Origin: an uncultured Poribacteria bacterium
Lineage (GTDB): Bacteria > Poribacteria > WGA-4E > WGA-3G
Assembly (NCBI GenBank): GCA_958296135.2
Contig: CATQHZ020000002.1
Span: forward strand, 1 to 64,000
Direction of reading: 5' to 3'
DNA: 64,000 nt
A program made the position numbers and the translations under genes. Below are positions 50,479-64,000 of this stretch, in pieces (positions within the stretch are counted from its first letter, which is position 1; every line of letters begins with the position of its first letter). The notes beneath the pieces are model-generated. The model was not told the origin of the DNA. It saw only the letters and a list, made by a program, of their open reading frames with translations, and ran no database searches.

Positions 50479-50503
50479 TATTTTGCTCCTTTTTGTTCCT
50501 TTA

Positions 50504-50544
50504 TATTATTAAAATATTAAATTTTCAAGGGCATTTAAATCCAA
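50504..50544 (-). promoter_or_regulatory. class M promoter motif, copy 5
   Basis: TATTATTAAAATATTAAATTTTCAAGGGCATTTAAATCCAA; further TTTAAATCCAA at 50584 and 50634. Confidence 0.8.
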
Positions 50545-50961
50545 ATAAATAAATATTTAATATTGAAAATATATTTCTGGTCGTTTAAATCCAAGCGACC
50601 AATATTTTTTATTGAAATGTTTTCAATTGGCGATTTAAATCCAATAAAATGTTTCATTGAAAAAAGTTGAAAAATTTGTTTGCAAAAATTTGGGATCCTG
50701 GTTTATATTATACAAGTAAATGTTTTTCGTCGGATATATCAAGATTGAATTAGATATATTGGATTGATCTCAAAAAGTTGATTTAGGATTTTTACAGGCA
50801 AATTACTAACCGGATTAGGAGTCCCACGTTTTCAAATAGGATTATAACAACATCATCAATGGCAGATGTCTGATCCAACAGCCCATGTTATTGATCTTGA
50901 TTAACATCTTGATTGTAAGGATCATAACCCTGATGGATGTTAGACAATCGATCCCTGTTAA

Positions 50962-50995
50962 CAAAAAATAAAGGACCGGAATCCGCTCCGGCCCT
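50962..50995 (-). terminator. GCGGAT-loop hairpin with U-tract closing the early gene array
   Basis: Minus strand AGGGCCGGA-GCGGAT-TCCGGTCCT-TTATTTTTT. Confidence 0.7.
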
Positions 50996-51027
50996 CTACT
51001 CTGATCGTTATGATCAATCACTCCCTG

Positions 51028-51525
51028 TTAGCAGACTATGGTCACCTCCTGATCTTCGCCGAACAACACCTCCCTGATGATCATGCCAGCCATCTCGATA
51101 TGATAGCCAACAACCTTGTCAGACTCATAATAGCAACAGGGCTTGATGATCCCTAAGAACTGAAGCTGATTGATCGCACAATCCATCGCCTGATAATAAG
51201 TCGGGAGATTCGGATCGACCTTATCATCAAAGTCCTTGATTGTATATCGACATAACCGGTTAAGATCCCGATCATCCCTGTCGGTCGCCTTGATCAACTC
51301 CTCCTCTAGTTCGCGCGGGCTGACCAGATCGGATCCTAATTTAGTCACCGCCTGGACGATATATCCCACAAGATCGGTTGGATTTTTCACATCCCTGATC
51401 CAGTGGGGGAGCTCATCTATCAATGTTGCCGCTTGATCCGCTTTGATGATCGCATTGACGATCCGCTGATCTTCGGTCACAATTATCAACTCGTTGCTCT
51501 TGTGATCAAATATTGGGGTTGTCAT
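51028..51525 (-). CDS. early protein, paralog family A (winged-helix-like C-terminus)
   Basis: AINQLQFLGII...AGMIIREVLFG..QEVTI shared with 51608, 56319, 57904 and 61426. Confidence 0.7.
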   Translation of the reverse strand: MTTPIFDHKSNELIIVTEDQRIVNAIIKADQAATLIDELPHWIRDVKNPTDLVGYIVQAVTKLGSDLVSPRELEEELIKATDRDDRDLNRLCRYTIKDFDDKVDPNLPTYYQAMDCAINQLQFLGIIKPCCYYESDKVVGYHIEMAGMIIREVLFGEDQEVTIVC

Positions 51526-51607
51526 TATATTCTCCTGTCGGACTCTAAATTTTAGGGCTTGATTGGGAGAGGATCAACATCCGCGCTGATCCCCTCCGAC
51601 ATCATGA

Positions 51608-52141
51608 TTAGGCTCTTATTGTGACCTCTTGAGCTGTCCCAAAGGACAACTCCTTGAGGACACGGCCAGCTATCAGGAGCCTGACGCCTGTCGCCTCATA
51701 TCGATAGCGATCATGGGGGACAGGATCGGATAGCTCCTCAAAATCAGTCCTGATCAACTCCTGGATATCAAGCAAGGATAGTCCGTGCAAGACAGCCTGA
51801 TCGATCGGATCATCATAGATCTGAGGTTCCTCATATAGATCCTCAAGATCTTGGGACGCCAACTGGGATAGCAGATCCATTCGACCCTGATAGCGAGCCT
51901 CAAGATCAGCCTTGATCTCATCGACGGTGACAAGATCCTGATCGCTTTGGAGGACAACGCTTGTTAGAACGTCATGGAACAGCTCCGGATTGATCATCGC
52001 AGCCACCGTTGTGGGATCTGCAACATCCTCAATGTTTTTGACATCAAACTCATCAACGCTGTTGACGGTGACGAGTCTATTGCTGTTGGGAGGGCTGATC
52101 CTCATTTGAAAGAGAGGATCAACATTGATTTGATAAGACAT
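51608..52141 (-). CDS. early protein, family A (start revised to MSYQINV)
   Basis: CAGGAG RBS before the ATG at 52141; AGRVLKELSFG..QEVTI; very acidic. Confidence 0.75.
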   Translation of the reverse strand: MSYQINVDPLFQMRISPPNSNRLVTVNSVDEFDVKNIEDVADPTTVAAMINPELFHDVLTSVVLQSDQDLVTVDEIKADLEARYQGRMDLLSQLASQDLEDLYEEPQIYDDPIDQAVLHGLSLLDIQELIRTDFEELSDPVPHDRYRYEATGVRLLIAGRVLKELSFGTAQEVTIRA

Positions 52142-52385
52142 TATATACTCCTGCTTGATTGGATCTTTATGATCCTTTATTGATTTGTTTGATCTATCAT
52201 ATGTTGGATCAATTATTTGATCCGTCAGGAGAGCGACTCCTTGCCGCCCCCCTCCTATATATAATATAGGCGATCGACCGTTGATTTCAGATCGAACATC
52301 CAATTTTTTTTGGAGCGGACATCCGATCCAGCTGATTGTGATGAGAGGACCGGATCCGCCCGATCCCCTCAACAGCTTGATGATC

Positions 52386-52721
52386 TTAAGCAAGGACATG
52401 ATCGATCCAATTATGAACCCAGCGGACATATTGACGCCGCCAGACCTCAATACGCAATCCGTAATGGTTGCCAACGGTGGGATCCTGATCATATATGCGA
52501 CGCTGGGAGTTGATCGCAGACTCAATATCAGCTCTGAGTTTGCCCATAAACAACCAGACCTCAAGATCCGATCTGAACTTGATCACATATCGCAATCTGA
52601 ACAGATCTTTTTTTAGCGACCGGCAGCCGCTTTTGATCCACTGGTTATCAGACTCTATCATCTCGGTGTGGAGCTGCTCGATCTGCTCCTCGATCGGTTT
52701 GACAACATTTTTGATCGACAT
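52386..52721 (-). CDS. early protein, family B (start revised to MSIKNVV)
   Basis: GAGGA RBS; KDLFRLRYVIKF resembles KDLSRIQYHVHV of the upstream gene. Confidence 0.65.
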   Translation of the reverse strand: MSIKNVVKPIEEQIEQLHTEMIESDNQWIKSGCRSLKKDLFRLRYVIKFRSDLEVWLFMGKLRADIESAINSQRRIYDQDPTVGNHYGLRIEVWRRQYVRWVHNWIDHVLA

Positions 52722-52837
52722 TATATAATCCTCTATTGGCTCAATTATTATTGAACCGTCTTGATTTGTGGGCAAGGGACCGGATCCGCTCCGATCCCAT
52801 CAGCCCGATTGATTTTTATTGAACAGCTTGTCTCAAT

Positions 52838-53512
52838 CTATAGATCCTCTTGTCCTGTAAGGACATCTTTGAGTCGACTTAGATCAGCAATCCGTTGGCG
52901 TTCTAGCTTCTCATCCGTCTGATCGCACTCCTTGATCCAATTGATCCGTTGATCGATAACAACGACTGCTCGATCTGCGTTCCGGTTCATATTGATGTCG
53001 GCGTACAATCTGCTTAGATCGTCAATCCGCGTCTGGACCGCCCAATCATCATAGCTGTCGGGATCTATCGCATCAAGATCCTGGATCAGCCCCTCATATC
53101 GAGCGTGGATTGCTCCAATATATTTATCGGTGAACATTTTTTTGATCTCCTCGTTGATTGTGACGACGGGACCGGATCCGCCCGATCCATCATCATCTGT
53201 TAGCAAGATCGATCTCGCCTTGTTAAGATTATCGATCCGCTCCTGTTTGTGCTCATCATCAGGGACCAGTCGCCTGATCGTCCTCAACAGTTGATCGACT
53301 CGCTCAACCGTCCTTGTCGGATTATCATCGACATGGACATGATATTGGATCCGCGACAGATCCTTGATTTGATCCCTTAGGATCCGGCATGTGAACAACG
53401 ACGGGACCGATGTTTGCTCGATCCCATCAAGATCGGTGTTGAGATCATCGATCATGACCTCAATTGCCTTATATGCTTGTCGGACATTTGGGCTAACAAA
53501 TTTGATTGTCAA
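52838..53512 (-). CDS. early protein, family B, two domains fused in frame (probable TTG start at 53512; internal RBS and ATG for MFTDKY)
   Basis: GAGGA-TAAAAAA-TTG start; linker DGSGGSGP is encoded by a GCGGAT hairpin; GAGGAG-N9-ATG inside the ORF. Confidence 0.65.
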   Translation of the reverse strand: MTIKFVSPNVRQAYKAIEVMIDDLNTDLDGIEQTSVPSLFTCRILRDQIKDLSRIQYHVHVDDNPTRTVERVDQLLRTIRRLVPDDEHKQERIDNLNKARSILLTDDDGSGGSGPVVTINEEIKKMFTDKYIGAIHARYEGLIQDLDAIDPDSYDDWAVQTRIDDLSRLYADINMNRNADRAVVVIDQRINWIKECDQTDEKLERQRIADLSRLKDVLTGQEDL

Positions 53513-53779
53513 TTTTTTATCCTCATTGATTGGATCTTTATGATCCTTTATTGATTGATCTGATCTATCATATGTTGGATCAATTATTTGATCCGTCTGG
53601 GAGCCGCTCATTGCCGCCCCCCCTCCTATATATAATATAGGCGATCGGAGCCTGATATCAGATCAGACATCCAAAAAAGTGGGATCAATTATTTGATCCA
53701 TCATTTGGGTTCAACATCTATCAGGCTGATTGTGACGAGAGGACCGGATCCGCCCGATCCCCTCAACAGCTTGATGATC

Positions 53780-54439
53780 TTAGGCATCGACCTGATAATG
53801 ATCTTTTAGGATCTGCTTGAGGCGGACTATATGATCCTCGCTGTCCTTAATTTGCTGCCGGATCATGTCCTCAACGCTCAATCCTGTTGTTTTAGCGACG
53901 ACATCATCGATTGTTGCTGTCACAACCTCTGCTGTTGCCGGTTTGACATCCTGAGCCGCGATTGGTTCAGGGACATCAACTCTGATCGCTTCGACAATCG
54001 CATGGATTGGAGCCTTGACATCAACTCTATGATCGCGAGCTTTGATCATGATGTTAAGGACCTCGACACAACGTGGAGTGCAATATCTCTCGCTGGCTTG
54101 ATCGAGCCCGCCATCAATATAGCTCCAAAGTCCGGTGACCGGATCTTTGTCGATCCAACCCCGTCCCATGCCCTTGTCACAACTCCAGATCCTTTTGACC
54201 ATCCGGAGCGGGCTGTTGGGATAGCCACCGGTCTGATTGACGACATGATCATGAACCGGATCGGTTAGCTGCTGCATATCATGGAGCAGATCGCGGAGAG
54301 CAATCGGGCTCCCGTCGCTCGGCATGGACGCCAACATTGCGATATGGACTGTCATCCGCTCTGTTGTTCTGCCGAGGATCAGCAGATCGCTATTATTGAG
54401 GACCGGAGACGCATTGGGTTCAAACATTTGATTGTTCAA
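53780..54439 (-). CDS. early protein, family C (winged-helix-like domain plus C-terminal coiled coil)
   Basis: GRGWID...GLWS and TTGLSVEDMIRQQI..S.D.I.RL.QILK.HYQ shared with 54655. Confidence 0.7.
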   Translation of the reverse strand: MNNQMFEPNASPVLNNSDLLILGRTTERMTVHIAMLASMPSDGSPIALRDLLHDMQQLTDPVHDHVVNQTGGYPNSPLRMVKRIWSCDKGMGRGWIDKDPVTGLWSYIDGGLDQASERYCTPRCVEVLNIMIKARDHRVDVKAPIHAIVEAIRVDVPEPIAAQDVKPATAEVVTATIDDVVAKTTGLSVEDMIRQQIKDSEDHIVRLKQILKDHYQVDA

Positions 54440-54654
54440 TTTATTTCTCCTGTTGGATCTTATGATCCGTCTTGATTGAGTTGATCAATCATATTATTTT
54501 GGGGAGCCAACCCATCGTCGGCTCCTATATATAATATAACGCATTTGGCCTTGATATCAGATCAGACATCCAAAAAATTTTGGCTTTAGACATCCAACCA
54601 ATTTGATGTTGGGAGGGGACCGGCATCCGCGCTGATCCCCTCCGGCTGTTGATT

Positions 54655-55230
54655 TTAAGCAACATCCTGATAATGATTTTTTAAGATCTGCTCCAGTCGA
54701 TCAATATAATCATGCGAGCTTTGGATCTGCTGCCTGATTATAGACTCTAGACTCAGATCTGTTGTCGCCTTGACATCAGGCTTGACCTCTTTGTCCACAA
54801 CAATCGGATCAATGACCTCATCCTGCTCTTGATCGCTATCATTTTGATCCTTGACTTTGTTAAGGACATCCATAAATTGCTCCAGATCCACACCATGATA
54901 GCCCAAATTGCTTTCAACATAGCGTCGGATCTCAACAATGGACGCATCGGTCGCAATCCAGCGGCCAGATTGACATTTGATCCACTGTTTTGCGGACGAC
55001 CACACGGATGTGATCCCAGCGAACTGGTTCTTAGATTTATATTGAGTTTCAAGGAGGTGATTGATCGGGATCAACAGCTCCTGGATAGCAGTCCATATAT
55101 CAGATCTGAACGCTTGATTATCATTATTGATCATGATGTCCAAAGCAACAGCCTGCATCGCGGGACCGATCTTGGTGTGATTTAAGATCATCACATCGTC
55201 GGTTGTCAAAACTCTTTCAGGTGCGAACAT
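54655..55230 (-). CDS. early protein, family C
   Basis: TTDLSLESIIRQQIQSSHDYIDRLEQILKNHYQ; WI...SGRWIAT wing-like segment. Confidence 0.7.
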   Translation of the reverse strand: MFAPERVLTTDDVMILNHTKIGPAMQAVALDIMINNDNQAFRSDIWTAIQELLIPINHLLETQYKSKNQFAGITSVWSSAKQWIKCQSGRWIATDASIVEIRRYVESNLGYHGVDLEQFMDVLNKVKDQNDSDQEQDEVIDPIVVDKEVKPDVKATTDLSLESIIRQQIQSSHDYIDRLEQILKNHYQDVA

Positions 55231-55321
55231 TTTATATACTCCATTAGCGGATAACTTACGCTATCCTATTTGATTGCGATGGGAGGACCGGCATCCGCGC
55301 CAGCCCTCCATCCGGTTAGCA

Positions 55322-55693
55322 TTAAATATCAATTTCGCCTGTCAATATTTCAACAACATAGCGCAGATCCGCCTCAAGATCCGGATATTGACCGTCATCC
55401 GTCCAGCGGCTATAGACGACGCTGATCAGCCTGATTGTCTTGACGCGATCCTTATAGACTGTCAAATGACTCAAGACGCGGCTCAGGACCTCAACCCGAT
55501 CGGTTAGCCGATCATAGACGCCCATCTGTTTGACCGTCATATCATCGATGTTGTCCGTCATGGGTTCCAGCTCGTCCTCGATCTGTTCCAATTGAGTGAT
55601 CATCGCACCGATGGCGAAGTCGACTCTAACGACAGGATCTTGTTGATCGATCAGATCCAAGATCGGCGTTTGATCTATCTTTGCGGTTGTCAT
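55322..55693 (-). CDS. early protein, family B
   Basis: DQT.ILD...Q.D...RVD.AI...LSRVL...YKD..KT...QYPDL..D..YV..ILTG shared with 55887. Confidence 0.75.
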   Translation of the reverse strand: MTTAKIDQTPILDLIDQQDPVVRVDFAIGAMITQLEQIEDELEPMTDNIDDMTVKQMGVYDRLTDRVEVLSRVLSHLTVYKDRVKTIRLISVVYSRWTDDGQYPDLEADLRYVVEILTGEIDI

Positions 55694-55886
55694 TTTTATT
55701 TATCCCCTTGTTGAGTTGATCCAAACAATTATTGGGAGCCGCTCATTGCCGCCCCCTCCTATATATAATATAACGCATTTGGCCTTGTTATCAGATCAGA
55801 CATCCAAAAAATTTTGGATCCAGACATCCGACAGCCTGATCGGTTGGGAGAGGACCGGCATCCGCGCCGATCCCCTCAACTGATTA

Positions 55887-56252
55887 TTAAATAATTTCAA
55901 AATTGCCTGTCAATATATCTCTGACATAATTGATGTCGAACACCAGATCCGGATATTGATCCTCCCAAAATCCGTAGGTTGTATCAATCATCTTGACGGT
56001 TTTATCAGGATCCTTATAGATCCTAATATAATTCAAGACTCGACTCAACATCTCAATCAGAGCTGTTTGAGCGTCTAGCGACCGTTGTAATCCTAGAGTC
56101 ATATCAGGATGCTTGTCGACAAACACCTCCAGATCGTTCTCTCTTTCCTCTAATGTTGGCTCTAACGTTCTGATGGCGAGATCGACTCTAAATTCCGCAT
56201 CTGTTTGCTCAAGCCGATCCAATATTGTTGTTTGATCTAATCTGACTGTCAT
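55887..56252 (-). CDS. early protein, family B
   Basis: Tandem paralog of 55322-55693. Confidence 0.75.
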   Translation of the reverse strand: MTVRLDQTTILDRLEQTDAEFRVDLAIRTLEPTLEERENDLEVFVDKHPDMTLGLQRSLDAQTALIEMLSRVLNYIRIYKDPDKTVKMIDTTYGFWEDQYPDLVFDINYVRDILTGNFEII

Positions 56253-56318
56253 TTTTTATTTATCCTTATTGATTGTGGACAAGGGACCGGATCCGCTCCG
56301 ATCCCTATCCGGTTATTA

Positions 56319-56846
56319 TTAAGCATCCACGCCACGGTTGGCTCTAACGGTCGCCATATGATCGCTCCCAAACGCCAACTCCTTGAGGACTCTGCCCACA
56401 AGAGTCAGCTTATATTGGGCTTGATCAAGTTCGCAAGTCGGATCAACCTCATTGATTAGATTTATATCAACAAGCTGCTCCAGAGTGGATCCAATCGACT
56501 CCTCGATAACTCGCTCCATCATTGGGATGTCAAAAATATCGACCACCCGATCTAAGCTGTCAATCAGAGCCTCCTGATCGTCAAGATCAAGCCGTCCAAA
56601 CCGAGCCTCGACATCCGCGTCGATCTCGTCACGGCTAACAGGATCCTGATCGCTTTGGGCAATCGATCCCAGAACGATCTCATAAAGATCCTCTTGATTG
56701 CGAAGGGACTCAACACTCATGGGAGTGCAGACATCCTCAATATCCTCGATGTCGCTGACATCCAGATCTGTGACCGTAATATATCGACCTTGATCTGCGA
56801 TGACGACTGTCCTTGTCTCATTTTTGCGATCAAATTTGATTGCCAT
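56319..56846 (-). CDS. early protein, family A (start revised to MAIKFD)
   Basis: IEDV..P...QSDQD.V..DEI.AD.EAR and GRVLKELAFG shared with 51608; highly acidic. Confidence 0.75.
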   Translation of the reverse strand: MAIKFDRKNETRTVVIADQGRYITVTDLDVSDIEDIEDVCTPMSVESLRNQEDLYEIVLGSIAQSDQDPVSRDEIDADVEARFGRLDLDDQEALIDSLDRVVDIFDIPMMERVIEESIGSTLEQLVDINLINEVDPTCELDQAQYKLTLVGRVLKELAFGSDHMATVRANRGVDA

Positions 56847-57062
56847 TATATACTCCATCTTGATTTGTTTGATCCAATCATCTCAATTTGGGAGCCAACC
56901 CATCGTCGGCTCCTATATATAATATAACGCATTTGGCCCTGTTATCAGATCAGACATCCAAAAAAGTGGGATCAATTATTTGATCCATCATTTGGGTTCT
57001 GACATCCGACAGCCTGATTGTCTTGGAGAGGACCGGATCCGCCCGATCCCCTCCGATCATTG

Positions 57063-57581: not shown

Positions 57582-57727
57582 TTTTTATTTATCCTCTTGT
57601 TGCGTTGATCCAATCATCTCAATTTGGGAACCAACCCATCGTCGGCTCCTATATATAATATAACGCATTTGGCCCTGTTATCAGATCGGACAACCAAAAA
57701 ATTTTGGTTCCGACATCCATCAGGACC

Positions 57728-57826
57728 TCAGACCTCATAACCGAGCAGATAAAGAAATATGCTCACAATGATAATGAAAGTCAAATAGATCCCGATATTC
57801 ATTAACAATCTTTTATATGTGTCCAT
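57728..57826 (-). CDS. 32-aa single-TM peptide (not in ORF track)
   Basis: MDTYKRLLMNIGIYLTFIIIVSIFLYLLGYEV, preceded by AAAGGT. Confidence 0.5.
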   Translation of the reverse strand: MDTYKRLLMNIGIYLTFIIIVSIFLYLLGYEV

Positions 57827-57903
57827 AAAATCAACCTTTGATATGTCTCCATATGAACAAGAAAGGAGAGCTAGCATCCGCGCCAGCCCTCCTAACATCA
57901 ATC

Positions 57904-58332
57904 CTAGTTGTCAAACAGCAAATCCAATATGATGTGGCCAACCTTTGTCGGCTTGACTCCTTGTTTATTACAACGATGGATGACTCCCATAAGTATCATA
58001 TCATGGACGACATCATAAAACGCTCGATCGAACGCGCTTCTCCTTCGAACCTTGATATCTTGATCATCATCAGGCTGATATGGTTCAAACGATCTGGCGG
58101 TATAATGCTTTAGATCAGATATATGGATCCAATCAAGAGGTCCAAGTTGACTCAACTCCTCACATAGATGGCGTCGGAGCCTCAGATCCTTGAAATCCTT
58201 AAGGACCTCCACGTTGCATAAATATTGCAAATCATTGAACTGATCATCCGTCAATCCGCTGGCGGTGACCGTTTTGACATTATCATTGATTGTGATGGTT
58301 ATCGCTACGCTATGTTCAAATTGGACATCCAT
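57904..58332 (-). CDS. early protein, distant family A member (start revised to MDVQFE)
   Basis: GGAGGT RBS; MILMGVI...PTKVGHIILDLLFD. Confidence 0.6.
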   Translation of the reverse strand: MDVQFEHSVAITITINDNVKTVTASGLTDDQFNDLQYLCNVEVLKDFKDLRLRRHLCEELSQLGPLDWIHISDLKHYTARSFEPYQPDDDQDIKVRRRSAFDRAFYDVVHDMILMGVIHRCNKQGVKPTKVGHIILDLLFDN

Positions 58333-58333
58333 G

Positions 58334-58522
58334 CTATTGAACCTCCGATCCATCAAAGCTGGCTTGAAAGCGGATCAAAACCAGCTTGAGTTGTTCTTCA
58401 AAAACATCCTGCTCGGCCTCTATCATATCAGACCAATGATCATGCTCCGGAACCCAGTCCTCAGGGCTTACATCAAGCTCCTGATTAGTCTCCACGTTAT
58501 CGGTTAACAATGCGGCTTTCAT
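58334..58522 (-). CDS. small acidic protein
   Basis: AAGGAG RBS; D/E-rich. Confidence 0.6.
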   Translation of the reverse strand: MKAALLTDNVETNQELDVSPEDWVPEHDHWSDMIEAEQDVFEEQLKLVLIRFQASFDGSEVQ

Positions 58523-58536
58523 ATTGTTCTCCTTGC

Positions 58537-58662
58537 CTATCTATTTATGTTGGATCTAAAAATCTGAGCAAAGACTCCAACTCCAATTACCATGATTTTG
58601 AACCCAACAGGAGCCTCTTGAAAGAGAAAGATTGCGATGGCGGCTGCTAAAGCTACAAACAT
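58537..58662 (-). CDS. 41-aa hydrophobic peptide (not in ORF track)
   Basis: GGAGGA RBS; MFVALAAAIAIFLFQEAPVGFKIMVIGVGVFAQIFRSNINR. Confidence 0.55.
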   Translation of the reverse strand: MFVALAAAIAIFLFQEAPVGFKIMVIGVGVFAQIFRSNINR

Positions 58663-58744
58663 TGATTGATCCTCCAAAAAGACAGGTGGGGACCAAAGCC
58701 CCCACCTTGATTATGAGACATCCGCGTCTCATTAATGTTTGCAA

Positions 58745-59377
58745 CTAAGAGACCTGTTCTGCAACAACAGCCTTGACTCGTCCACGCCCATTCCGCTGGA
58801 CGCCAGACTCTTTCAAGTGAGCATTGATCGTCGCGGAGTTGATCCCTTTAAGCTCACCAATGGCGGATCCGCTCATTCCCTTTTCGGTGTGCAGATGACG
58901 CCATTCAGCCTTGTCATCATCGCTATGCTTCCGACGGTTGTTGCTCTTAGTCGGCAACAGCTTGACCGCATCCTCCCTCAACTTATCGAGTCCAGGAACA
59001 TCTGTCCCTCGCTCCTGAGCAAGGACACTCTTAACGATGTTGTCTTTGACGATCAGCCCCTTGAACTTGCCGTGGATCTTGAACGGGATAAGCTTAAGAT
59101 CCATGTTGTCGTTGACAAATTTTTCGTGGATGAACTTAACGACATCCGCTGCCAGCTCGACCTTGCGTCCACGAGCCTTCGGTTTGAGCAAGACAGCTGC
59201 CGACTCGGCGTTGAGCGGAGCAATCCATGTTTGCTTGTCCTCTTTCAACTTGAGGACCTTATTAAGTTCCGCCTGAACGTTGGCGGGGCTATCAGTCTCG
59301 GTGTTGAGTTCAATCGATCCGGCGGCAACGGTTCCGGCATCCGTCTGTTTGTAAAGATCAAATTTATATGCGGACAT
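58745..59377 (-). CDS. early protein, family D, C-terminal HTH (start revised to MSAYKF)
   Basis: AAGGAG RBS; SDDDKAEWRHLH..GMSG.AIG...GINSATINAHLK HTH. Confidence 0.75.
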   Translation of the reverse strand: MSAYKFDLYKQTDAGTVAAGSIELNTETDSPANVQAELNKVLKLKEDKQTWIAPLNAESAAVLLKPKARGRKVELAADVVKFIHEKFVNDNMDLKLIPFKIHGKFKGLIVKDNIVKSVLAQERGTDVPGLDKLREDAVKLLPTKSNNRRKHSDDDKAEWRHLHTEKGMSGSAIGELKGINSATINAHLKESGVQRNGRGRVKAVVAEQVS

Positions 59378-59597
59378 TATATAATCTCCTTGACGGCCTG
59401 ACACAATCAAGCCATAAATTAAAATTACAATCAATTTTTATAGGAGCCAACCCATCGTCGGCTCCTATATATAATATAGCCGACTCTTTGTTGTTATCAG
59501 ATCGGACAACCGATAAATTTTCGCTTTGGACAACCAACCGACCTTGGAGAGCTGACATCCGCGCCAGCTCTCCAATAATCGACATCCTGTCCTGATC

Positions 59598-60248
59598 TTA
59601 ATAATTATCAAGATCGCACTCCATCCATGCTTTGGGATTGAGCCTGCAAACTTGATTATATTTCGCATAAACAGCTTTGAGGAGTCCAACAACACCAATA
59701 ACGGTTTGCGGATCAACATTATGTTTTTGTGCGACCGGTTCAACCCATGCGGTATCGCCTTTTGCAGTCCGGAACCAAGAGTCCGGCGTCTGGTGAGCAA
59801 GGAACGACCGCCAGATATAATGGACCATAAAATCAATCAGCGGATATTCGACATAAACCCGATTGACATTTGCGATCCTGAACGGATGACTCATTTCGCC
59901 GCCGGCAGCCATGACTTGATCCAGATCAGGATCAGCCCACAACTCGCCCAGAAAGCCTTCAACATCGACCATTGGGATATCGATTACAATCCCGTTGGCC
60001 TCATTAATGACTTCAAGTTCGCAGAACTTAACGCTGACATCCATAGGATCGATCCCATAATCATCAACGATTTCGCCAAAGCCATCAAAGACTCCATTGA
60101 ACTCCATCCGGTTATCGGGCAACGCCAACCGACGGGGGAACCCAACCATAACCGAGAGCTTGTCGCTTGTCGCTTCAAAGACCTCGATTTTGGGAGTCAA
60201 TCTATAAGGAGGGACGATATCAACACCTTCAATCAAATTGCTTAACAT
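59598..60248 (-). CDS. hypothetical early protein (start revised to MLSNLI)
   Basis: TAGGAG RBS downstream of a class E promoter. Confidence 0.7.
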   Translation of the reverse strand: MLSNLIEGVDIVPPYRLTPKIEVFEATSDKLSVMVGFPRRLALPDNRMEFNGVFDGFGEIVDDYGIDPMDVSVKFCELEVINEANGIVIDIPMVDVEGFLGELWADPDLDQVMAAGGEMSHPFRIANVNRVYVEYPLIDFMVHYIWRSFLAHQTPDSWFRTAKGDTAWVEPVAQKHNVDPQTVIGVVGLLKAVYAKYNQVCRLNPKAWMECDLDNY

Positions 60249-60431
60249 TATATTGTCTCCTAAATTTACAATCATCCATAATTGGGAGCCAACCCATCGT
60301 CGGCTCCATATATATAATATAACGCATTTGGCCTTGTTATCAGATCGGACAACCAAAAAATTTTGGCTCCGACATCCAACCGGTGGGGACGAGCCGACAT
60401 CCGCGCCAGCTCGTCCTTTATTGTCATCCGG

Positions 60432-61058
60432 TTATGCATTTGTGACAACAGCCTTGACTCGTCCACGCCCATTCCGCTGGACGCCAGACTCTTTCAAGTG
60501 AGCATTGATCGTCGCGGAGTTGATTCCAAGCTCCTTACCGATCCTGAAGCCACTCCAACCGTCTTCGGTGTGCATGCGACGCCATTCAGCCTTGTCATCA
60601 TCGCTATACTTCCGACGATTGTTGCTCTGAGCCGGCAACAGCTTGACCGCTTGCTCCCTCAACTCATCGATGCCAGCAACATCCGTTCCACGTTCCTGAG
60701 CAAGGACACTCTTAACGATGTTGTCCTTAACCAACAGGCCCTCGAACTTATTATGAACCTTAAAGGGGATTACTTTAAGATCCACATTGTCGTTGACAAA
60801 TTTTTCGTGGATGAACTTAACGACATCCGGTTCCAGCTCGACTTTGCGTCCACCGACCTTCGGTTTGAGCAAAACTGCTGCTGTCTCGACGTTGAGTGCA
60901 GCAACATGATACTTTTTGTTCTTGTTCAGCTCGATCATATCATTAACAGCCGCCTGAACGATGGCGGGGCTATGAGTCTCGGTGCTAAGATCAACAGATC
61001 CGGCTGCGACCACTCCATCATCGTTGCGCTCATAAAGATCATATTTGACGGTTAACAT
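60432..61058 (-). CDS. early protein, family D (close paralog of 58745-59377)
   Basis: Long near-identical stretches, e.g. DVVKFIHEKFVNDN, VKDNIVKSVLAQERGTDV, GINSATINAHLKESGVQRNGRGRVKAVV. Confidence 0.75.
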   Translation of the reverse strand: MLTVKYDLYERNDDGVVAAGSVDLSTETHSPAIVQAAVNDMIELNKNKKYHVAALNVETAAVLLKPKVGGRKVELEPDVVKFIHEKFVNDNVDLKVIPFKVHNKFEGLLVKDNIVKSVLAQERGTDVAGIDELREQAVKLLPAQSNNRRKYSDDDKAEWRRMHTEDGWSGFRIGKELGINSATINAHLKESGVQRNGRGRVKAVVTNA

Positions 61059-61231
61059 TTTAAATGTCTCCTTGACGACTTGACGCATCAAGCCATAAAT
61101 TAAAATTACAATCAATTTTTATAGGAGCCAACCCATCGTCGGCTCCTATATATAATATAGCCGACTCTTTGTTGTTATCAGATCGGACAACCGATAAATT
61201 TTCGCCCAAGACAACCAACCGACTGTGCGGT

Positions 61232-61321
61232 TTATTTTTTATCGCTGTTGCCAAGTACTACTATCCATATTGTTATTATATTCGCCATTACAGCGATTAA
61301 CATAAGATCTATGTTATCCAT
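61232..61321 (-). CDS. 29-aa single-TM peptide (not in ORF track)
   Basis: GGGAGGG RBS; MDNIDLMLIAVMANIITIWIVVLGNSDKK. Confidence 0.5.
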   Translation of the reverse strand: MDNIDLMLIAVMANIITIWIVVLGNSDKK

Positions 61322-61425
61322 TTGATCATCCCTCCCTGATTGTGACTAATGGGACTGGATCCGCCCAACCCCATCAGCCCGTTCGCTCCATAAGATCCGA
61401 TCTAATGGATCAGATCTGATACGAT

Positions 61426-62058
61426 CTAATAGATATCTGTGATACCTTTAAGATCGAATACAATTGCCATCAGGACTCGTCCCGCCTTTGTGACAGAGAC
61501 TGCTCTTAGTTCTGTGTCATCCTGAACGCGGAGTCCATCAAAGAGCTGTTCCATGATAAACTGATCCATAAGGCTCCAGAACTGATATCCGACCACGTCT
61601 GGCATATGATCAATCTCGTCTGGACTCATTTGACCATCATCAAGGATGGCTTCCGCAGCCAATCCCCTCAGATTGTGTTGATCATCCTCATCATGACTCC
61701 AAACCAACTGGTTCAAGATATCTTGAGGGGTGACCACAATATTTTGATCAAATTCAACCGAGGATAGCAGAGCCTCTTCAAACTCAGACTCCCAAACTCC
61801 ATCGGGGTTGTCATCGATCATGCGTTTCATAGCAGCGACCGATATGTTAACGATCCGAGCTGCGTCCAAGACCTCATGATTGAAGCTGTTAACACGCCAC
61901 CGATCGGTTTTGGCAACATCTTCAACAAGATAATCTAAATATGTCCTTTCAACGGGATTGACATTGTGAACAACAACGGTTTTGATCGATCCATCATTGT
62001 TCTCGATTTTGATTTCAACACCCTGTCGCTCTTTGATCGACACATTTTTGATCGACAT
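61426..62058 (-). CDS. early protein, distant family A member (start revised to MSIKNVS)
   Basis: GAGGAG RBS; C-terminal VTKAGRVLMAIVFD; acidic. Confidence 0.65.
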   Translation of the reverse strand: MSIKNVSIKERQGVEIKIENNDGSIKTVVVHNVNPVERTYLDYLVEDVAKTDRWRVNSFNHEVLDAARIVNISVAAMKRMIDDNPDGVWESEFEEALLSSVEFDQNIVVTPQDILNQLVWSHDEDDQHNLRGLAAEAILDDGQMSPDEIDHMPDVVGYQFWSLMDQFIMEQLFDGLRVQDDTELRAVSVTKAGRVLMAIVFDLKGITDIY

Positions 62059-62250
62059 TTTATATCTCCTCTTAATTGTCACAATCAATCAATTATTTGG
62101 GAGCCAACCCATCGTCGGCTCCATATATATAATATAGCCGACTCTTTGTTGTTATCAGATCAGACAACCGATAAATTTTCGCTTTGGACAACCAACCGAC
62201 CGTGAAGGGCTGACATCCGCGTCGGCCCTCCAATTTAGATCAAGATCTTG

Positions 62251-62661
62251 TTAATCCAATTTGTTTATGATATATTCAAGATCATCTTTTGTTATATTGT
62301 CTTTTCCAGATTTCTCCACGCCATCCAATCTGTTTTCAATATAATAGATCAACTCAGAACGAACATCCATCAGAGTCTCATAAAGCTTATCTTTAGCCTC
62401 GTTAAGCTTCTCCATAACAACGGCTTCCTCAAGCTCATACCACTCGATTGCGTCTGCCAACGTCGGCAGTTCCCAGACATCTGTTCTAGTGATATCGCAT
62501 ACAATCTCAGCCGCTTGTTTTGGACCATAATCAGCGTCCTGAGCCAACGGCGATTCAGGCTCCGCAAGAACCTCAATTGCTTGATGTTCCGCAACGATTT
62601 CATTATACTCTTGTTCAATCAACGCAACGTTGTATACTTCCTTATGAACTTGGCTTATCAT
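62251..62661 (-). CDS. acidic helical early protein (start revised to MISQVH)
   Basis: GGAGGAG RBS; start overlaps the upstream stop (TAATG). Confidence 0.65.
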   Translation of the reverse strand: MISQVHKEVYNVALIEQEYNEIVAEHQAIEVLAEPESPLAQDADYGPKQAAEIVCDITRTDVWELPTLADAIEWYELEEAVVMEKLNEAKDKLYETLMDVRSELIYYIENRLDGVEKSGKDNITKDDLEYIINKLD

Positions 62662-63056
62662 TATACTCCTCCCAAAAAGATGGTTGCCAACCAATCGACA
62701 ACTTTGATTGTGACATATGCTATTGTCGCCAAACCAATTACGGCTAGGCAGCCAGAACAACCATCATTATCATCATCGTCGTCGTCATCATTATTGTCAA
62801 CTTTTACTTTCAATTTGACGGTTGTATTTGTTCTAAGCACTTTGAGTGTGGTGACAAACGCCGCCTCGATAGCTTCAACATCATCAGGATCATGATCATC
62901 ATAGACTTCCTCAAAGATGTCCATAAAATCAGATCCAATATTTTCATAAACATCAGTTTGATCATCCGCGATCACGAACCTGAGTTCATAAGCTAATTCC
63001 TTTGGATCTACTCTATCGTCACCATTTAGATATGCGAACAAATTATACTTGATCAT
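62661..63056 (-). CDS. acidic early protein with poly-Asp linker and C-terminal TM helix
   Basis: GGAG RBS before MIKYNL; DNNDDDDDDDND then a hydrophobic tail. Confidence 0.65.
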   Translation of the reverse strand: MIKYNLFAYLNGDDRVDPKELAYELRFVIADDQTDVYENIGSDFMDIFEEVYDDHDPDDVEAIEAAFVTTLKVLRTNTTVKLKVKVDNNDDDDDDDNDGCSGCLAVIGLATIAYVTIKVVDWLATIFLGGV

Positions 63057-63189
63057 TTTATGGTCTCCAATAACATTAAATTTACAATCATTTTTTATAG
63101 GAACCAACCCAGCGTTGGCTCCTATATATAATATAGCCGACTCTTTGCTGTTATCAGATCAGACAACCGATAAATTTTTCGCTTGGCGA

Positions 63190-63540
63190 TCAATCCGACC
63201 GATTTGTTTTGACATCTGGGTTAAGTTCGATCATATGATTTACCCAGTTTACAAGTTCATCAATATCGGTTTTGGGTTCATATAAACTTTCGCTGATCTC
63301 CATATATGTCCATATGAATTTCTCCATAAGGTTACCCTGCGGATTTGGTCTTATGTTCTTTAATGTCCACAAATATAACCGGTATGGCATCCATTTAATC
63401 ATATGGCGAAACCGGTTACCAAACCGTGGTTCTTCAGACCCTTTCAACAAATTGCGGGAATCATTAAAAACTTTCCACTCTTCGATATCGATCAACGCTG
63501 CTCCATAATCTTCTTCAAGACTGTCTTTTAATTCAATCAT
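63190..63540 (-). CDS. hypothetical protein
   Basis: AAGGAG RBS. Confidence 0.6.
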   Translation of the reverse strand: MIELKDSLEEDYGAALIDIEEWKVFNDSRNLLKGSEEPRFGNRFRHMIKWMPYRLYLWTLKNIRPNPQGNLMEKFIWTYMEISESLYEPKTDIDELVNWVNHMIELNPDVKTNRSD

Positions 63541-63551
63541 GATAGCTCCTT

Positions 63552-63998
63552 TTAACTGAAGATGATATCTTCATTTAAGTCCATATCATATGCTGCGAAC
63601 CGCATCTTGAGACAAGCTCGTTCAAAGATGTTAGTTATAGCGGCATTTGTATATGGTTTTTTGGTTAATTCTTGATCAGCAAGTTCTGCAGCAACCTCAG
63701 ATCCACTCAGATTACCGAGAAATCCTCTATTGTAATTCAGGACGACAAATCTCTCCATATCATCTAGATTGACGAGGAGGCTATCAAACAGATCTTTATA
63801 TTCAACTTCTGCGATATAGTCTCGCGCTCCGGTGAGCAAATTCGATCCATCGTCAGGAATTGTGTCCATAACCTCCGCATAATCAAATTCATCATCATTG
63901 ATAACTTGATTTAACGAAGATGTGTGCCTAATTTCAAGCATTGCTATTTCGGGAGCCTCTAACATTGTTGTTATGCCAATATCATACTCTTCAGATCT
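63552..63998 (-). CDS. sigma70-family factor, region 4-like C-terminus (5' end outside the window)
   Basis: LLVNLDDMERFVV...LSGSEVAAEL...TNAAITNIFERACLKMR; the frame stays open to the window edge. Confidence 0.6.
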   Translation of the reverse strand, partial: RSEEYDIGITTMLEAPEIAMLEIRHTSSLNQVINDDEFDYAEVMDTIPDDGSNLLTGARDYIAEVEYKDLFDSLLVNLDDMERFVVLNYNRGFLGNLSGSEVAAELADQELTKKPYTNAAITNIFERACLKMRFAAYDMDLNEDIIFS

Positions 63999-64000
63999 AA

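What the first reader, a model, noticed from the sequence alone, without database searches (positions are those of the whole stretch)
50850..64000. GATC-saturated segment with a sharp left edge
Seen (hand counts): 21 GATC in 51001-51600 and 26 in 52861-53460, versus 5 in 23461-24060 and about 2-3 expected per 600 bp. GATC occurs in all reading frames, in intergenic DNA, in every class E promoter and in many hairpin stems. The bias looks weaker toward 64 kb. Established: GATC is the Dam m6A site, one Dnd phosphorothioate site, and the target of SeqA, MutH and DpnI. Inference: the first-injected DNA is selected to carry dense host-type modification marks (self-mimicry or blocking of overlapping restriction sites) or to recruit or titrate a GATC-binding protein. 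I know of no described phage system with such a localized GATC load.
Basis: partly seen in the sequence, partly recalled or inferred. Interest (0 to 1): 0.9.

Follow-up and report, generated by a model that had tools for sequence, protein, structure and literature searches.

The report
GATC-saturated early-gene island in a phage
A 15.6-kb block of small unknown genes in a new 144-kb phage carries the four-letter word GATC at up to ten times the chance rate, placed there by selection on the DNA itself, probably as a dense array of sites for the phage's own DNA-modifying enzymes.

Summary
GATC runs at 31.9 per kb in 50851-57000 and 13.4 per kb in 57001-67000, against 5.7-7.0 per kb elsewhere on the contig. 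The left change-point is at 50,870.

The enrichment survives every codon and amino-acid control. Coding and non-coding DNA are equally dense. In the core, 162 of 232 positions that could encode GATC synonymously do so.

The segment is a native island, contig 50,870-66,470, in a novel tailed phage:
- about 24 small genes of unknown function;
- ten repeated sigma-70-like promoters and hairpin terminators;
- GC3 of 0.52 against 0.22 in the rest of the phage.

It is not a chimeric join.

The phage encodes five DNA methyltransferases, the preQ0 pathway and a DpdA-like DNA transglycosylase. The chromosome binned with it avoids GATC (O/E 0.24).

Best reading (about 0.4): a selected, very dense load of GATC modification sites on the first-expressed genes. 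GATC specificity of any of these enzymes, the host link and "first-injected" are all unproven. DNA of related phages could not be reached. I found no report of a localized GATC load like this.

The parts
50870..57600 (-). GATC-saturated core of the island: 10 small ORFs plus their spacers
   Evidence: About 32 GATC per kb. Per-gene density is 19-43 per kb with GC3 0.42-0.60. 162 of 232 synonymous opportunities are used. No Pfam hit reaches its cut-off for any of the 10 ORFs, and only 1 of the 8 scanned against PHROGs has a weak hit.
57601..64000 (-). Moderately enriched half of the same island; it continues past the window to contig position about 66,470
   Evidence: 13.4 GATC per kb. Per-gene density is 5-18 per kb with GC3 0.33-0.58. 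78 of 165 opportunities are used. No Pfam family at E <= 0.01 for the ORFs inside the window; two ORFs beyond it have weak helix-turn-helix hits below cut-off.
52252..52290 (-). E-class promoter-like element (CTGAAA, 16 nt, TATATT, then ATATAGGAG)
53623..53661 (-). E-class promoter-like element (CTGATA, 16 nt, TATATT)
54522..54560 (-). E-class promoter-like element
55756..55794 (-). E-class promoter-like element
56910..56948 (-). E-class promoter-like element
57646..57684 (-). E-class promoter-like element
59462..59500 (-). E-class promoter-like element (upstream limit set by analogy with the six scanned copies)
61143..61181 (-). E-class promoter-like element (upstream limit by analogy)
63119..63157 (-). 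E-class promoter-like element (upstream limit by analogy)
51028..51525 (-). ORF of 165 aa, family 1 (acidic, pI 4.5); last gene of the island
51608..52141 (-). ORF of 177 aa, family 1 (pI 4.2). AF2 model has mean pLDDT 89.8 with a winged-helix-like core
52386..52721 (-). ORF of 111 aa (basic, pI 9.2)
52838..53611 (-). ORF of 257 aa; densest gene, 42.6 GATC per kb
53780..54439 (-). ORF of 219 aa, family 3. Only 3 homologues found in 5.8 billion proteins
54655..55230 (-). ORF of 191 aa, family 3 paralogue
55322..55693 (-). ORF of 123 aa, family 2
55887..56252 (-). ORF of 121 aa, family 2 paralogue
56319..56858 (-). ORF of 179 aa, family 1 paralogue
57063..57581 (-). ORF of 172 aa
50961..50996 (-). 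Last hairpin followed by a T-run; terminator-like end of the island's final gene
   Evidence: Read directly from the sequence. GATC density stays high for about 100 bp beyond it, down to 50,872.
50497..50644 (-). Three TTGGATTTAAA boxes and the second-class promoter (TTGAAA, 17 nt, TATAAA) that opens the structural and packaging operon. This is the GATC-poor side of the edge.

Best explanation
What it is (shown). The segment is a native compositional island, contig 50,870-66,470 on the minus strand, in a novel 143.9-kb tailed phage. It holds about 24 small genes of unknown function, including at least four old paralogue pairs. The genes are arranged as short units, many with their own sigma-70-like promoter and a hairpin terminator. 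Codon usage is unlike the rest of the phage: GC3 is 0.52 against 0.22.

On this island GATC has been driven close to saturation by selection at the nucleic-acid level. Three layers add up. Amino-acid sequences are shifted toward Asp followed by Leu, Pro, His, Gln or Arg. Synonymous choices create GATC whenever possible (Asp is GAT in 92 of 92 cases before a C). Spacers are as dense as genes. A weaker pull of the same direction acts on the whole phage genome.

How it most likely works (inferred). The island is the immediate-early, host-takeover gene set. It would be transcribed by host RNA polymerase and translated with host tRNAs before the phage's own tRNAs and defences exist. GATC would be the target of one of the phage's own DNA-modifying enzymes. 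The phage has five methyltransferases, two of them D12 class, plus a preQ0 pathway and a DpdA-like transglycosylase.

Virion DNA would then enter the next cell with a modified site on both strands about every 31 bp of the island. In the core, 64% of 32-nt windows hold at least one site. That would shield the DNA that must work first from sequence-reading nucleases. Because 12 of 13 early promoters hold a GATC, the marks could also let loss of full modification after replication switch the early genes off.
For: - Reality and specificity.
- Context-dependent synonymous choice in the core: Asp is GAT 92/92 before C against 77/108 otherwise. Leu and Arg codons start with C 44/45 after GAT against 130/221 otherwise. 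Four-fold codons end in G 36/69 before Ile against 129/598 otherwise.
- The same biases hold genome-wide: 465/480 against 1687/2021, and 185/330 against 1930/4733.
- Opportunities realised: 162/232 in the core, 78/165 in the outer half, 777/3176 in the rest.
- Old paralogues (nucleotide identity 0.48-0.60) keep GATC at aligned positions 21-50% of the time, against 9-21% for other 4-mers. Most of their GATCs sit at non-shared positions.
- GATC is the only one of 16 four-base palindromes strongly enriched. GTAC, GGCC, TGCA and AGCT are avoided, as expected under restriction pressure.
- Native, not imported: 13 copies of one promoter type span 52-84 kb. The GGCC, GCGC and GTAC avoidance is shared with the rest of the phage. 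An exact Logan contig spans 50499-52184 in X1 and X2, with shorter exact pieces in X3 and X4.
- Early-gene reading: unknown genes with sigma-70-like promoters, codon usage closer to a GC-rich host (RSCU r +0.36 against -0.55 for the rest), and phage tRNAs for A/T-ending codons.
- Modification toolkit.
- Short-motif phage DNA modification that blocks restriction enzymes and Cas9 is established for DpdA phages (passages read in PMC10484667, PMC7544227 and PMC6884629).
- The binned chromosome and its near genera purge GATC (O/E 0.10-0.39). This is consistent with long-standing GATC-directed pressure in that clade.
Against: - No enzyme here is shown to act on GATC. Both D12-class methyltransferases score 62.2 and 49.6 bits against a Dam subfamily cut-off of 114.85. 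Their best solved relative is M.CbeI, an N4-cytosine enzyme. The three N6_N4 enzymes resemble MboIIA, EcoP15I Mod and unnamed methylases.
- Known DpdA motifs are GA and GGC, not GATC. GA outside GATC is not enriched.
- Protection by modification does not by itself require more sites.
- The synonymous-shuffle O/E is similar in the core (1.47), the outer half (1.63) and the rest (1.31). Part of the local excess therefore comes from the island's own composition. Its GC3 is 0.52 even in the 1385 codons that do not touch GATC.
- The host link rests on binning of a metagenome only. There is no CRISPR spacer match.
- Timing of expression, modification state and genome ends are all unmeasured.
- DNA of related phages could not be obtained, so conservation of the island is unknown.
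Confidence: 0.4

Rival explanations
1. Reader array. The GATC sites are binding sites for a GATC-recognising protein of phage or host. Binding could sequester or compact the early region after replication, as SeqA does, and so shut off early genes. Alternatively it could titrate a host GATC-binding defence protein.
For: The density (median spacing 23 bp) resembles known protein-covered GATC clusters such as oriC, with 11 GATC in 256 bp (passage in PMC11447400). 12 of 13 E promoters carry a GATC next to the -35 hexamer. Island family 1 has a confident winged-helix-like core whose tied top matches include the Gm6ATC-binding domain of DpnI (Z 7.8, rmsd 2.6, 70 aligned).
Against: No SeqA, MutH/Sau3AI, DpnI or DpnII family gene was found in any of the four contigs. 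The winged-helix matches are generic: Z is about 8 or less and tied with kleisin, histone H1 and Fur. The proteins are very acidic (pI 4.1-4.5), which argues against DNA binding. No helical-phase periodicity is evident; spacings mostly follow the codon phase.
Confidence: 0.2
2. No island-specific function. A genome-wide GATC-favouring bias, from selection or from a mutation or repair bias linked to the phage's modification, is simply amplified in the island. The amplification would come from acidic, Asp- and Ile-rich proteins and GC3-rich, host-like codons that offer about four times more opportunities.
For: The synonymous-shuffle O/E is about the same everywhere: 1.47 in the core, 1.63 in the outer half and 1.31 in the rest. 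Synonymous shuffling still leaves 110 of 162 GATC, about 21 per kb. GC3 is 0.52 in codons that do not touch GATC. Family 1 homologues from other sources are also Asp-rich (10.5% Asp, 4.2 D-[LPHQR] per 100 aa).
Against: The residue after Asp is Leu, Pro, His, Gln or Arg in 94/200 cases in the core, against 48/182 in the outer half and 645/2501 in the rest. Opportunities are realised 70% against 24%. Non-coding DNA is as dense as coding DNA and 2.5 times its Markov-1 expectation. At similar GC3, the two halves of the island differ 2-3 fold in GATC. The shuffle O/E is capped in the core because codon composition there is already shaped by GATC.
Confidence: 0.2
3. RNA-level signal. GAUC is selected in the early transcripts as the cleavage site of a sequence-specific endoribonuclease, so that early mRNAs are removed at the switch to later genes. 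This is analogous in logic to T4 RegB (recalled, not checked in a paper here).
For: All island genes are on one strand and transcribed as short units. Density is equal in 5' leaders and coding parts. A host that purges the same word would fit a cellular GAUC-cutting RNase.
Against: The word is a palindrome, which fits recognition by a symmetric double-stranded-DNA reader. GATC stays dense for about 100 bp after the final terminator with its T-run, and also between terminators and promoters. No candidate RNase was identified.
Confidence: 0.1
4. Mosaic import. The island was acquired recently from another phage or genome that is GC-richer and GATC-rich throughout.
For: There is a sharp compositional step at both ends. 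GC is 0.47 against 0.34. GC3 is 0.52 against 0.22, and RSCU is uncorrelated with the rest of the phage (r about 0). Genome-wide fourfold GATC excess exists in subcluster B3 mycobacteriophages (passage in PMC4841201).
Against: The island uses the same promoter family as genes at 66-84 kb that have ordinary phage composition. It shares the phage's GGCC, GCGC and GTAC avoidance. The rest of the phage shows the same GATC-favouring codon-context biases. Paralogues about 50% diverged have each kept or gained GATC. The edges coincide with transcription-unit boundaries.
Confidence: 0.07
5. Assembly artefact or chimeric join.
For: The genome is a metagenome bin. Contig depth dips over 52-60 kb.
Against: Logan contigs from the runs match exactly across the left edge: 50499-52184 in X1 and X2, 50499-51795 in X4, with 0 differences. 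Promoter repeats tie the island to the rest of the contig.
Confidence: 0.01

Closest known systems
Genome-wide GATC (and GGATCC) over-representation in subcluster B3 mycobacteriophages (PMC4841201; passages read)
   Same: A phage carries several-fold more GATC than expected, against the usual avoidance of palindromes. The cause is unexplained.
   Different: There the excess is about fourfold, uniform along the genome and extends to GGATCC. Here it is about 8-fold by base composition, confined to a 6.7-kb core and a 15.6-kb island with a sharp edge, and has no flank preference.
Dam-site clusters read by proteins: E. coli oriC (11 GATC in 256 bp; passage in PMC11447400) and the P1 pac site (recalled)
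   Same: Local GATC density is of the same order, and the methylation state of clustered GATC controls a DNA transaction.
   Different: Those clusters span 0.15-0.25 kb of non-coding DNA. This one spans 6.7-15.6 kb, mostly coding. No SeqA gene was found. There is no fixed hexamer such as the pac repeats.
Phage DNA hypermodification at short motifs: 7-deazaguanine inserted by DpdA at GA (phage iggy) or GA and GGC (CAjan) (PMC10484667, PMC7544227, PMC6884629; passages read)
   Same: This phage encodes FolE, QueD, QueE, QueC and a DpdA-like enzyme. In those systems the density of protection is set by the density of the motif in the DNA.
   Different: No motif enrichment is reported in the passages I read. 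Here the enriched word is the full GATC, not GA. The chemistry of this phage's DNA is unknown.
Pre-early (first-step-transfer) region of T5-like phages, whose restriction-site content decides sensitivity before anti-restriction genes act (recalled; only the listing and abstract start of PMC10644984 were seen)
   Same: A block of small early genes whose oligonucleotide content is under special selection because it must function before counter-defences exist.
   Different: In T5 the block lies in a terminal repeat and sites are removed. Here no terminal repeat is seen, there are no homologous genes, and a site is added to saturation.
T1/TLS-type phages with their own Dam and fully methylated GATC (PMC11447400; passages read)
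   Same: A virulent phage encodes an adenine methyltransferase and keeps many GATC sites.
   Different: TLS has 254 GATC in 49.9 kb, about 5 per kb, with no island.

Membership tests
Dam-type (GATC) adenine methylation system | D12-class methyltransferase domain present | tested here: met
   PF02086 scores 82.3 and 86.5 bits against a cut-off of 22 for contig ORFs 79552-80364 and 92781-93641.
Dam-type (GATC) adenine methylation system | Membership of the Dam subfamily proper (TIGR00571 above cut-off) | tested here: not met
   62.2 and 49.6 bits against a cut-off of 114.85. The best solved relative of both is 7m6b, M.CbeI, an N4-cytosine methyltransferase. DpnM is second for one of them (E 8.7e-10).
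Dam-type (GATC) adenine methylation system | Methylation of the A in GATC on phage DNA | not testable with these tools
   Needs SMRT or nanopore kinetics, DpnI/DpnII digestion or LC-MS.
SeqA / oriC-type GATC cluster | Clustered GATC far above expectation | tested here: met
SeqA / oriC-type GATC cluster | A SeqA (or MutH) reader encoded by phage or binned host | tested here: not met
   PF03925 and PF02976 give 0 matches in the four contigs. The bin is 94.7% complete.
P1-type pac site | Short array (about 0.16 kb) of a fixed GATC-containing hexamer next to the terminase genes | tested here: not met
   The feature spans 6.7-15.6 kb. The flanks of GATC are unconstrained, with all 16 hexamers used. 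It lies 3.3 kb from TerL.
T5-like first-step-transfer pre-early region | Lies in a long terminal repeat at the entering end | tested here: inconclusive
   Words from the contig ends do not recur elsewhere. Contigs cannot show molecule ends.
T5-like first-step-transfer pre-early region | Homologues of the T5 pre-early genes | tested here: not met
   The Pfam scans returned only hits far below cut-off or none. Of 10 ORFs scanned against PHROGs, 2 have a hit, both weak and of unknown function.
Phage 7-deazaguanine DNA modification (DpdA plus preQ0 pathway) | FolE, QueD, QueE and QueC encoded | tested here: met
   PF01227 253.9 bits, PF01242 108.8, PF04055 51.4 and PF06508 245.6.
Phage 7-deazaguanine DNA modification (DpdA plus preQ0 pathway) | DpdA (TGT-like DNA transglycosylase) with catalytic Asp and zinc ligands | tested here: met
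   Contig ORF 84266-85414. D90-S91-G92-G93, Q95, D262, H310, C312, C315 and H339 are invariant in 20 sequences. hhalign against the host Tgt gives probability 75.6%, E 2.4e-5. The profile hits 7ui4, 'DNA-guanine transglycosylase', at E 4.6e-4. One homologue carries PF01702. 22 of 30 atlas hits are TGT clusters. Pfam TGT itself does not hit the phage ORF.
Phage 7-deazaguanine DNA modification (DpdA plus preQ0 pathway) | Modified G present in virion DNA, and its sequence motif | not testable with these tools
   Needs LC-MS/MS and nanopore comparison with amplified DNA.

The most novel reading that the evidence does not exclude
A phage writes the target word of its own DNA-modification enzyme into its immediate-early genes until almost every possible position is used. 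The first DNA to be expressed in a new cell would then be an epigenetically armoured, or methylation-timed, segment. This would be a localized, sequence-encoded 'modification density' strategy, evolved against a host clade that purges the same word from its own chromosome.
Probability: 0.35. Interest if true: 0.85.

Novelty: new variant of a known kind. Interest (0 to 1): 0.7.

Why it matters
Phage genomes are known for removing restriction-site palindromes. Here one palindrome is instead driven to near-saturation in one functional block, down to the choice of neighbouring amino acids. If the sites are modified, motif density itself would be an evolvable counter-defence parameter that can be tuned region by region. 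That would add to the two established strategies, site avoidance and genome-wide base replacement.

The case is directly testable. The phage has a defined island, a rich set of candidate enzymes, and relatives that exist in public assemblies. It also offers a clean natural example of nucleic-acid-level selection reshaping protein sequences, with Asp-X dipeptides at three times the background rate.

Tried and rejected
Searches for relatives that found nothing usable:
- Megablast of 8 kb and 15 kb against 50,697 phage records gave no match.
- TerL by tblastn is at most 28% identical to known phages.
- TerL, a TerL alignment and the family 1 alignment found no relative in IMG/VR.
- The TerL alignment found none in JGI metagenomes.
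- It found only relatives at 25-29% in GTDB genome contigs.
- In 159 genomes of the host's order the best match is 33% identical.
- The promoter pattern gave 0 hits in metagenome contigs and viral contigs.
- A shorter promoter core gave 7 viral contigs with ordinary GATC content, taken as chance hits.
- Close relatives (TerL 78-96% identical) exist only as ENA or Logan proteins.

Other steps that led nowhere:
- Sequencing runs: only four runs of one sample hold the stretch, and no RNA holder is listed.
- Contig depth dips to 0.25-0.5 of the flanks over 52-60 kb. It tracks GATC only weakly: Spearman -0.09 to -0.52 within the island. The tool warns that contig depth is no measure, so I do not use it as evidence.
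- Rfam found no family at E <= 0.1 in 50000-64000.
- The C1 CRISPR-like array has no spacer-like match to the phage.
- No DpnII, MutH/Sau3AI, SeqA or DpnI family was found in the bin.
- Foldseek on the family 1 model gave nothing at E <= 0.001.
- The family 3 AF2 model was poor (pLDDT 59.8), so I did not search with it.
- The maximal-order Markov O/E (1.33 in the core) understates the excess, because GAT and ATC are themselves inflated by GATC.

Ideas rejected:
- 'Other palindromes are more strongly avoided in the island.' After synonymous-shuffle control the extra depletion is not clearly beyond that in the rest of the phage.
- 'GA-motif (DpdA-type) enrichment.' GA outside GATC is flat across segments.

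Full report
OBSERVATION

Counted per kb, GATC is 0-11 in all 51 bins of 1-51000. It is 36, 36, 38, 26, 28, 28 in 51-57 kb and 9-20 in 57-64 kb, where base composition predicts 2.6-3.9. A two-rate likelihood scan places the left edge at 50,870.

The window is the first 64 kb of contig C2 (143,886 bp, GC 0.368) of a four-contig bin. On the whole contig the density is:
- 5.7 per kb in 1-50850;
- 31.9 per kb in 50851-57000;
- 13.4 per kb in 57001-67000;
- 7.0 per kb beyond.

The feature therefore runs past the window's end, to about 66,470.

IS IT MORE THAN CODON AND AMINO-ACID USAGE?

Yes. In the 10 ORFs of the core there are 162 GATC, against 110.2 +/- 5.4 after shuffling synonymous codons within each gene (z 9.6).

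An earlier version used 9 ORFs, one of them over-long. It gave 165 observed. Resampling codons from the rest of the phage gave 70.4 +/- 4.6. Permuting codons gave 63.9 +/- 6.7. None of 300 shuffles reached the observed value.

Non-coding DNA is as dense as coding DNA: 49 GATC in 1675 bp (29.3 per kb) against 162 in 5175 bp (31.3 per kb). It exceeds all 1000 Markov-1 simulations (19.4 +/- 4.1, maximum 34).

The word is exactly GATC:
- No flanking base is constrained, and all 16 NGATCN hexamers occur.
- GA outside GATC is flat at 115-126 per kb in all segments.
- 61% of GAT is followed by C in the core, against 25% in 1-50850.

Context-dependent synonymous choice is extreme in the core:
- Asp is GAT in 92 of 92 cases when the next base is C, against 77 of 108 otherwise.
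- Leu and Arg codons begin with C in 44 of 45 cases after GAT, against 130 of 221 otherwise.
- Four-fold codons end in G in 36 of 69 cases before Ile, against 129 of 598 otherwise.
- Protein sequence is bent too. The residue after Asp is Leu, Pro, His, Gln or Arg in 94 of 200 cases, against 351 of 1495 after other residues.

Of all dipeptide positions that could encode GATC synonymously, 162 of 232 do so in the core. The figures are 78 of 165 in the outer half and 777 of 3176 in the rest of the phage. "Saturated" is a fair word.

The same biases exist more weakly across the whole phage. GATC is the only one of the 16 four-base palindromes that is strongly enriched anywhere. GTAC, GGCC, TGCA and AGCT are avoided.

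WHAT THE SEGMENT IS

C2 is a tailed phage with no close known relative:
- Structural and packaging genes are recognisable: terminase, portal, protease, major head protein, tape-measure-like protein and fibres.
- 160 of 173 heuristic ORFs lie on the minus strand.
- TerL is at most 28% identical to known phages.

The island is an array of about 24 small ORFs. None reaches a Pfam cut-off, and there are two weak PHROG hits of unknown function.

The ORFs include at least four old paralogue pairs:
- Three pairs in the core have amino-acid identity 0.33-0.45.
- One pair in the outer half has amino-acid identity 0.70.

Many units have their own promoter-like element of one conserved type: CTGATA, 16 nt, TATATT, followed by ATATAGGAG. 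There are 13 copies on the contig between 52,268 and 83,884, ten of them in the island, and 12 of the 13 hold a GATC beside the -35 hexamer. The units also carry a leader hairpin and a G+C-rich hairpin after the gene.

The left edge coincides with the last terminator-like hairpin, at 50961-50996. Next comes a second promoter class: TTGGATTTAAA, 5 nt, TTGAAA, 17 nt, TATAAA, with about 16 copies. The copy at 50,544 opens the structural operon. The right edge coincides with the E promoter at 66,468, just downstream of a phage sigma-factor gene.

Nine of the ten core proteins are acidic (pI 4.1-5.4), with 11.7% Asp. An AF2 model of family 1 (pLDDT 89.8) shows a winged-helix-like core. Its structural matches are generic: top Z is 8.3, with the DpnI DNA-binding domain tied among them at Z 7.8. 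I draw no function from this.

A SECOND, INDEPENDENT PECULIARITY

The island's codon usage is unlike the rest of the phage. GC3 is 0.52 in the core and 0.40 in the outer half, against 0.20-0.22 elsewhere. It is still 0.52 in the 1385 core codons that do not touch a GATC.

Relative synonymous codon usage of the core correlates +0.36 with long ORFs of the binned chromosome C1 and about 0 with the rest of the phage. The rest of the phage correlates -0.52 to -0.56 with C1. The phage carries tRNAs for A/T-ending codons and its own tmRNA.

My inference is that these are immediate-early genes tuned to the tRNA pool of a GC-richer host. They would be expressed before the phage's own tRNAs accumulate. 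Timing itself is not measured.

At similar GC3, the two halves of the island differ two- to three-fold in GATC. GC3 therefore does not explain the saturation.

NATIVE OR IMPORTED? ARTEFACT?

The island looks native:
- It uses the same promoter family as ordinary-composition genes at 66-84 kb.
- It shares the phage's avoidance of GGCC, GCGC and GTAC.
- It shows the same GATC-favouring context biases as the rest of the genome.
- Paralogues about 50% diverged at the nucleotide level keep GATC at aligned positions 21-50% of the time, against 9-21% for other 4-mers. Most of their GATCs are at non-shared positions.

This points to continuing maintenance and gain, not inheritance from one GATC-rich ancestor.

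It is not an assembly artefact. Logan contigs from the four runs of the one sample that holds the sequence match exactly across the left edge: 50499-52184 in X1 and X2, and 50499-51795 in X4. Those runs each hold 3.6-3.8 million contigs, so the bin comes from a metagenome.

THE SURROUNDINGS

The phage has an unusually large DNA-modification kit:
- two D12-class and three N6_N4-class methyltransferases;
- FolE, QueD, QueC and QueE of the preQ0 pathway;
- a 382-aa ORF at contig 84266-85414 that is a divergent TGT/DpdA homologue.

For the last of these, the DSGGFQ motif, a second Asp and an H/C/C/H set are invariant in 20 sequences. hhalign against the host Tgt gives probability 75.6%. The family profile hits the solved 'DNA-guanine transglycosylase' 7ui4 at E 4.6e-4. 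One homologue carries PF01702.

None of these enzymes can be assigned to GATC. Both D12 enzymes fall below the Dam subfamily cut-off, and their best solved relative is M.CbeI, an N4-cytosine enzyme. The others resemble MboIIA, EcoP15I Mod and unnamed methylases. Published DpdA motifs are GA and GGC.

The binned chromosome C1 (5.01 Mb, GC 0.544) avoids GATC more than any other 4-mer (1.31 per kb, O/E 0.24, z -257). In 6.8-20 kb samples of related genomes:
- O/E is 0.10-0.39 in 6 genomes of the four nearest genera;
- 0.56-0.77 in 6 genomes of two further genera of the family;
- 0.72-0.86 in 3 genomes of another family.

C1 has an orphan-looking D12 methyltransferase. No DpnII, MutH/Sau3AI, SeqA or DpnI family was found in the bin.

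The phage-host link is binning only. No CRISPR spacer of C1 matches C2.

HOW IT MOST LIKELY WORKS

Shown: selection, or a directional process that behaves like it, acts on the double-stranded word GATC. It is weak genome-wide and near-saturating on the island. It acts at three levels: amino-acid sequence, synonymous sites and spacers.

Inferred:
- GATC is the target of a phage-encoded modification.
- The island is the first-expressed DNA.
- A modified site about every 31 bp on both strands shields that DNA, or times its promoters. Median spacing is 23 bp, and 64% of 32-nt windows in the core contain a site, against 15-19% elsewhere.

I put this at about 0.4. The rivals are:
- a GATC-reading protein array (0.2);
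- a genome-wide bias amplified by the island's composition, with no local function (0.2);
- an RNA-level GAUC signal (0.1);
- mosaic import (0.07);
- artefact (0.01).

The strongest point for the 'no local function' rival is that the synonymous-shuffle O/E is similar in the core (1.47), the outer half (1.63) and the rest (1.31). The strongest points against it are the amino-acid-level shift, the equal density of spacers and the 70% against 24% use of opportunities.

'First-injected' is neither supported nor excluded. The island lies 35-46% along the contig, the contig ends do not repeat, and contigs cannot show molecule ends.

COMPARISON WITH WHAT IS KNOWN

- Genome-wide fourfold GATC excess is described for subcluster B3 mycobacteriophages, without explanation (PMC4841201, passages).
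- GATC is said to be often over-represented in haloarchaeal genomes that carry the cognate methylase, while HF1-type viruses lack it entirely (PMC7230728, passages).
- T1/TLS phages keep about 5 methylated GATC per kb (PMC11447400, passages).
- Short GATC clusters at oriC are read by proteins (same paper).
- Motif-limited 7-deazaguanine modification protects phage DNA from restriction enzymes and Cas9 (PMC10484667, PMC7544227 and PMC6884629, passages).

In five full-text searches I found no report of a localized, multi-kilobase GATC saturation of an early-gene block. Supplementary files were not consulted.

I therefore rate it a new variant of a known kind: selection on restriction or modification words in phage genomes, unusual in sign, strength and localization.

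LIMITS

- Gene calls are my own longest-ORF heuristic.
- DNA of related phages was unreachable, so conservation is untested. Only the Asp-rich composition of 19 family 1 homologues could be seen.
- Modification state, expression timing, host and genome ends are all unmeasured.

Noticed in passing
L011:12571-12916 (contig C2 113571-113916, minus strand): The phage encodes its own tmRNA with tag peptide EDNFEYALAA. Its 3' end matches the tmRNA of chromosome C1 (tag ADEELALAA) in 29 of 30 bases.
   Followed up: partly
L009:6046-6795, L010:14705-15256, L010:17012-17692, L011:4438-5142, L010:2266-3414 (all minus strand): A complete preQ0 pathway (QueD, FolE, QueC, QueE) plus a divergent DpdA-like DNA-guanine transglycosylase. 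The phage probably replaces some guanines with a 7-deazaguanine.
   Followed up: yes
L009:12352-13644, L009:16552-17364, L010:7509-9071, L010:10781-11641, L011:14143-14958 (minus strand): Five DNA methyltransferase genes in one phage. One is fused to an Mrr_cat / inactive-restriction-endonuclease-like domain.
   Followed up: partly
window 7261, 11406, 14872, 18729, 50544 and about 11 more sites on C2 (minus strand): A second, highly conserved promoter class (TTGGATTTAAA, 5 nt, TTGAAA, 17 nt, TATAAA) precedes the structural, nucleotide-metabolism and replication genes. A phage sigma factor is encoded at C2 66558-67454.
   Followed up: partly
window 52000-60000: Logan-contig depth falls to 0.25-0.5 of the flanks in all four runs of the one sample. 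A second haplotype is visible at 48.4-50.2 kb. This suggests the island varies between co-existing strains, but contig depth is a poor measure.
   Followed up: partly
G000:C1 (whole chromosome) and L041-L055: The binned chromosome avoids GATC (O/E 0.24), GACC/GGTC (0.42), GTAC (0.37), CTAG (0.55) and GGCC (0.59). GATC avoidance is shared by the four nearest genera and fades with distance.
   Followed up: partly
G000:C1:2716812-2718752 and C1:951488-952576: Two extra TGT-like ORFs (646 and 362 aa) sit beside the canonical tgt gene. They may be a host DNA-deazaguanine (Dpd-like) system. Their neighbourhoods were not examined.
   Followed up: no
G073:C1 and G085:C1: Chromosomes of one related genus carry 6-7 dispersed copies of a terminase-large-subunit-like ORF of 600-700 aa, 27-29% identical to the phage TerL.
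   Followed up: no
L012 / C2 125876-140839 and 119091-125864 (minus strand): Giant ORFs of 4987 and 2257 aa, with internal repeats of about 0.9-1.8 kb at 72-87% identity. They are probably fibre or adhesin proteins.
   Followed up: no
window 9021-10880, 4924-6879, 16055-18637; L010:3501-6962; L011:5962-7074: The phage encodes DnaK (Hsp70), RecJ, the ribonucleotide reductase large subunit, the Pol III alpha subunit and a beta clamp.
   Followed up: no
G000:C1 about 3642843-3643728: A CRISPR-like array of at least 16 repeats with spacing 72-77 bp. No spacer-like match to the phage contig.
   Followed up: partly
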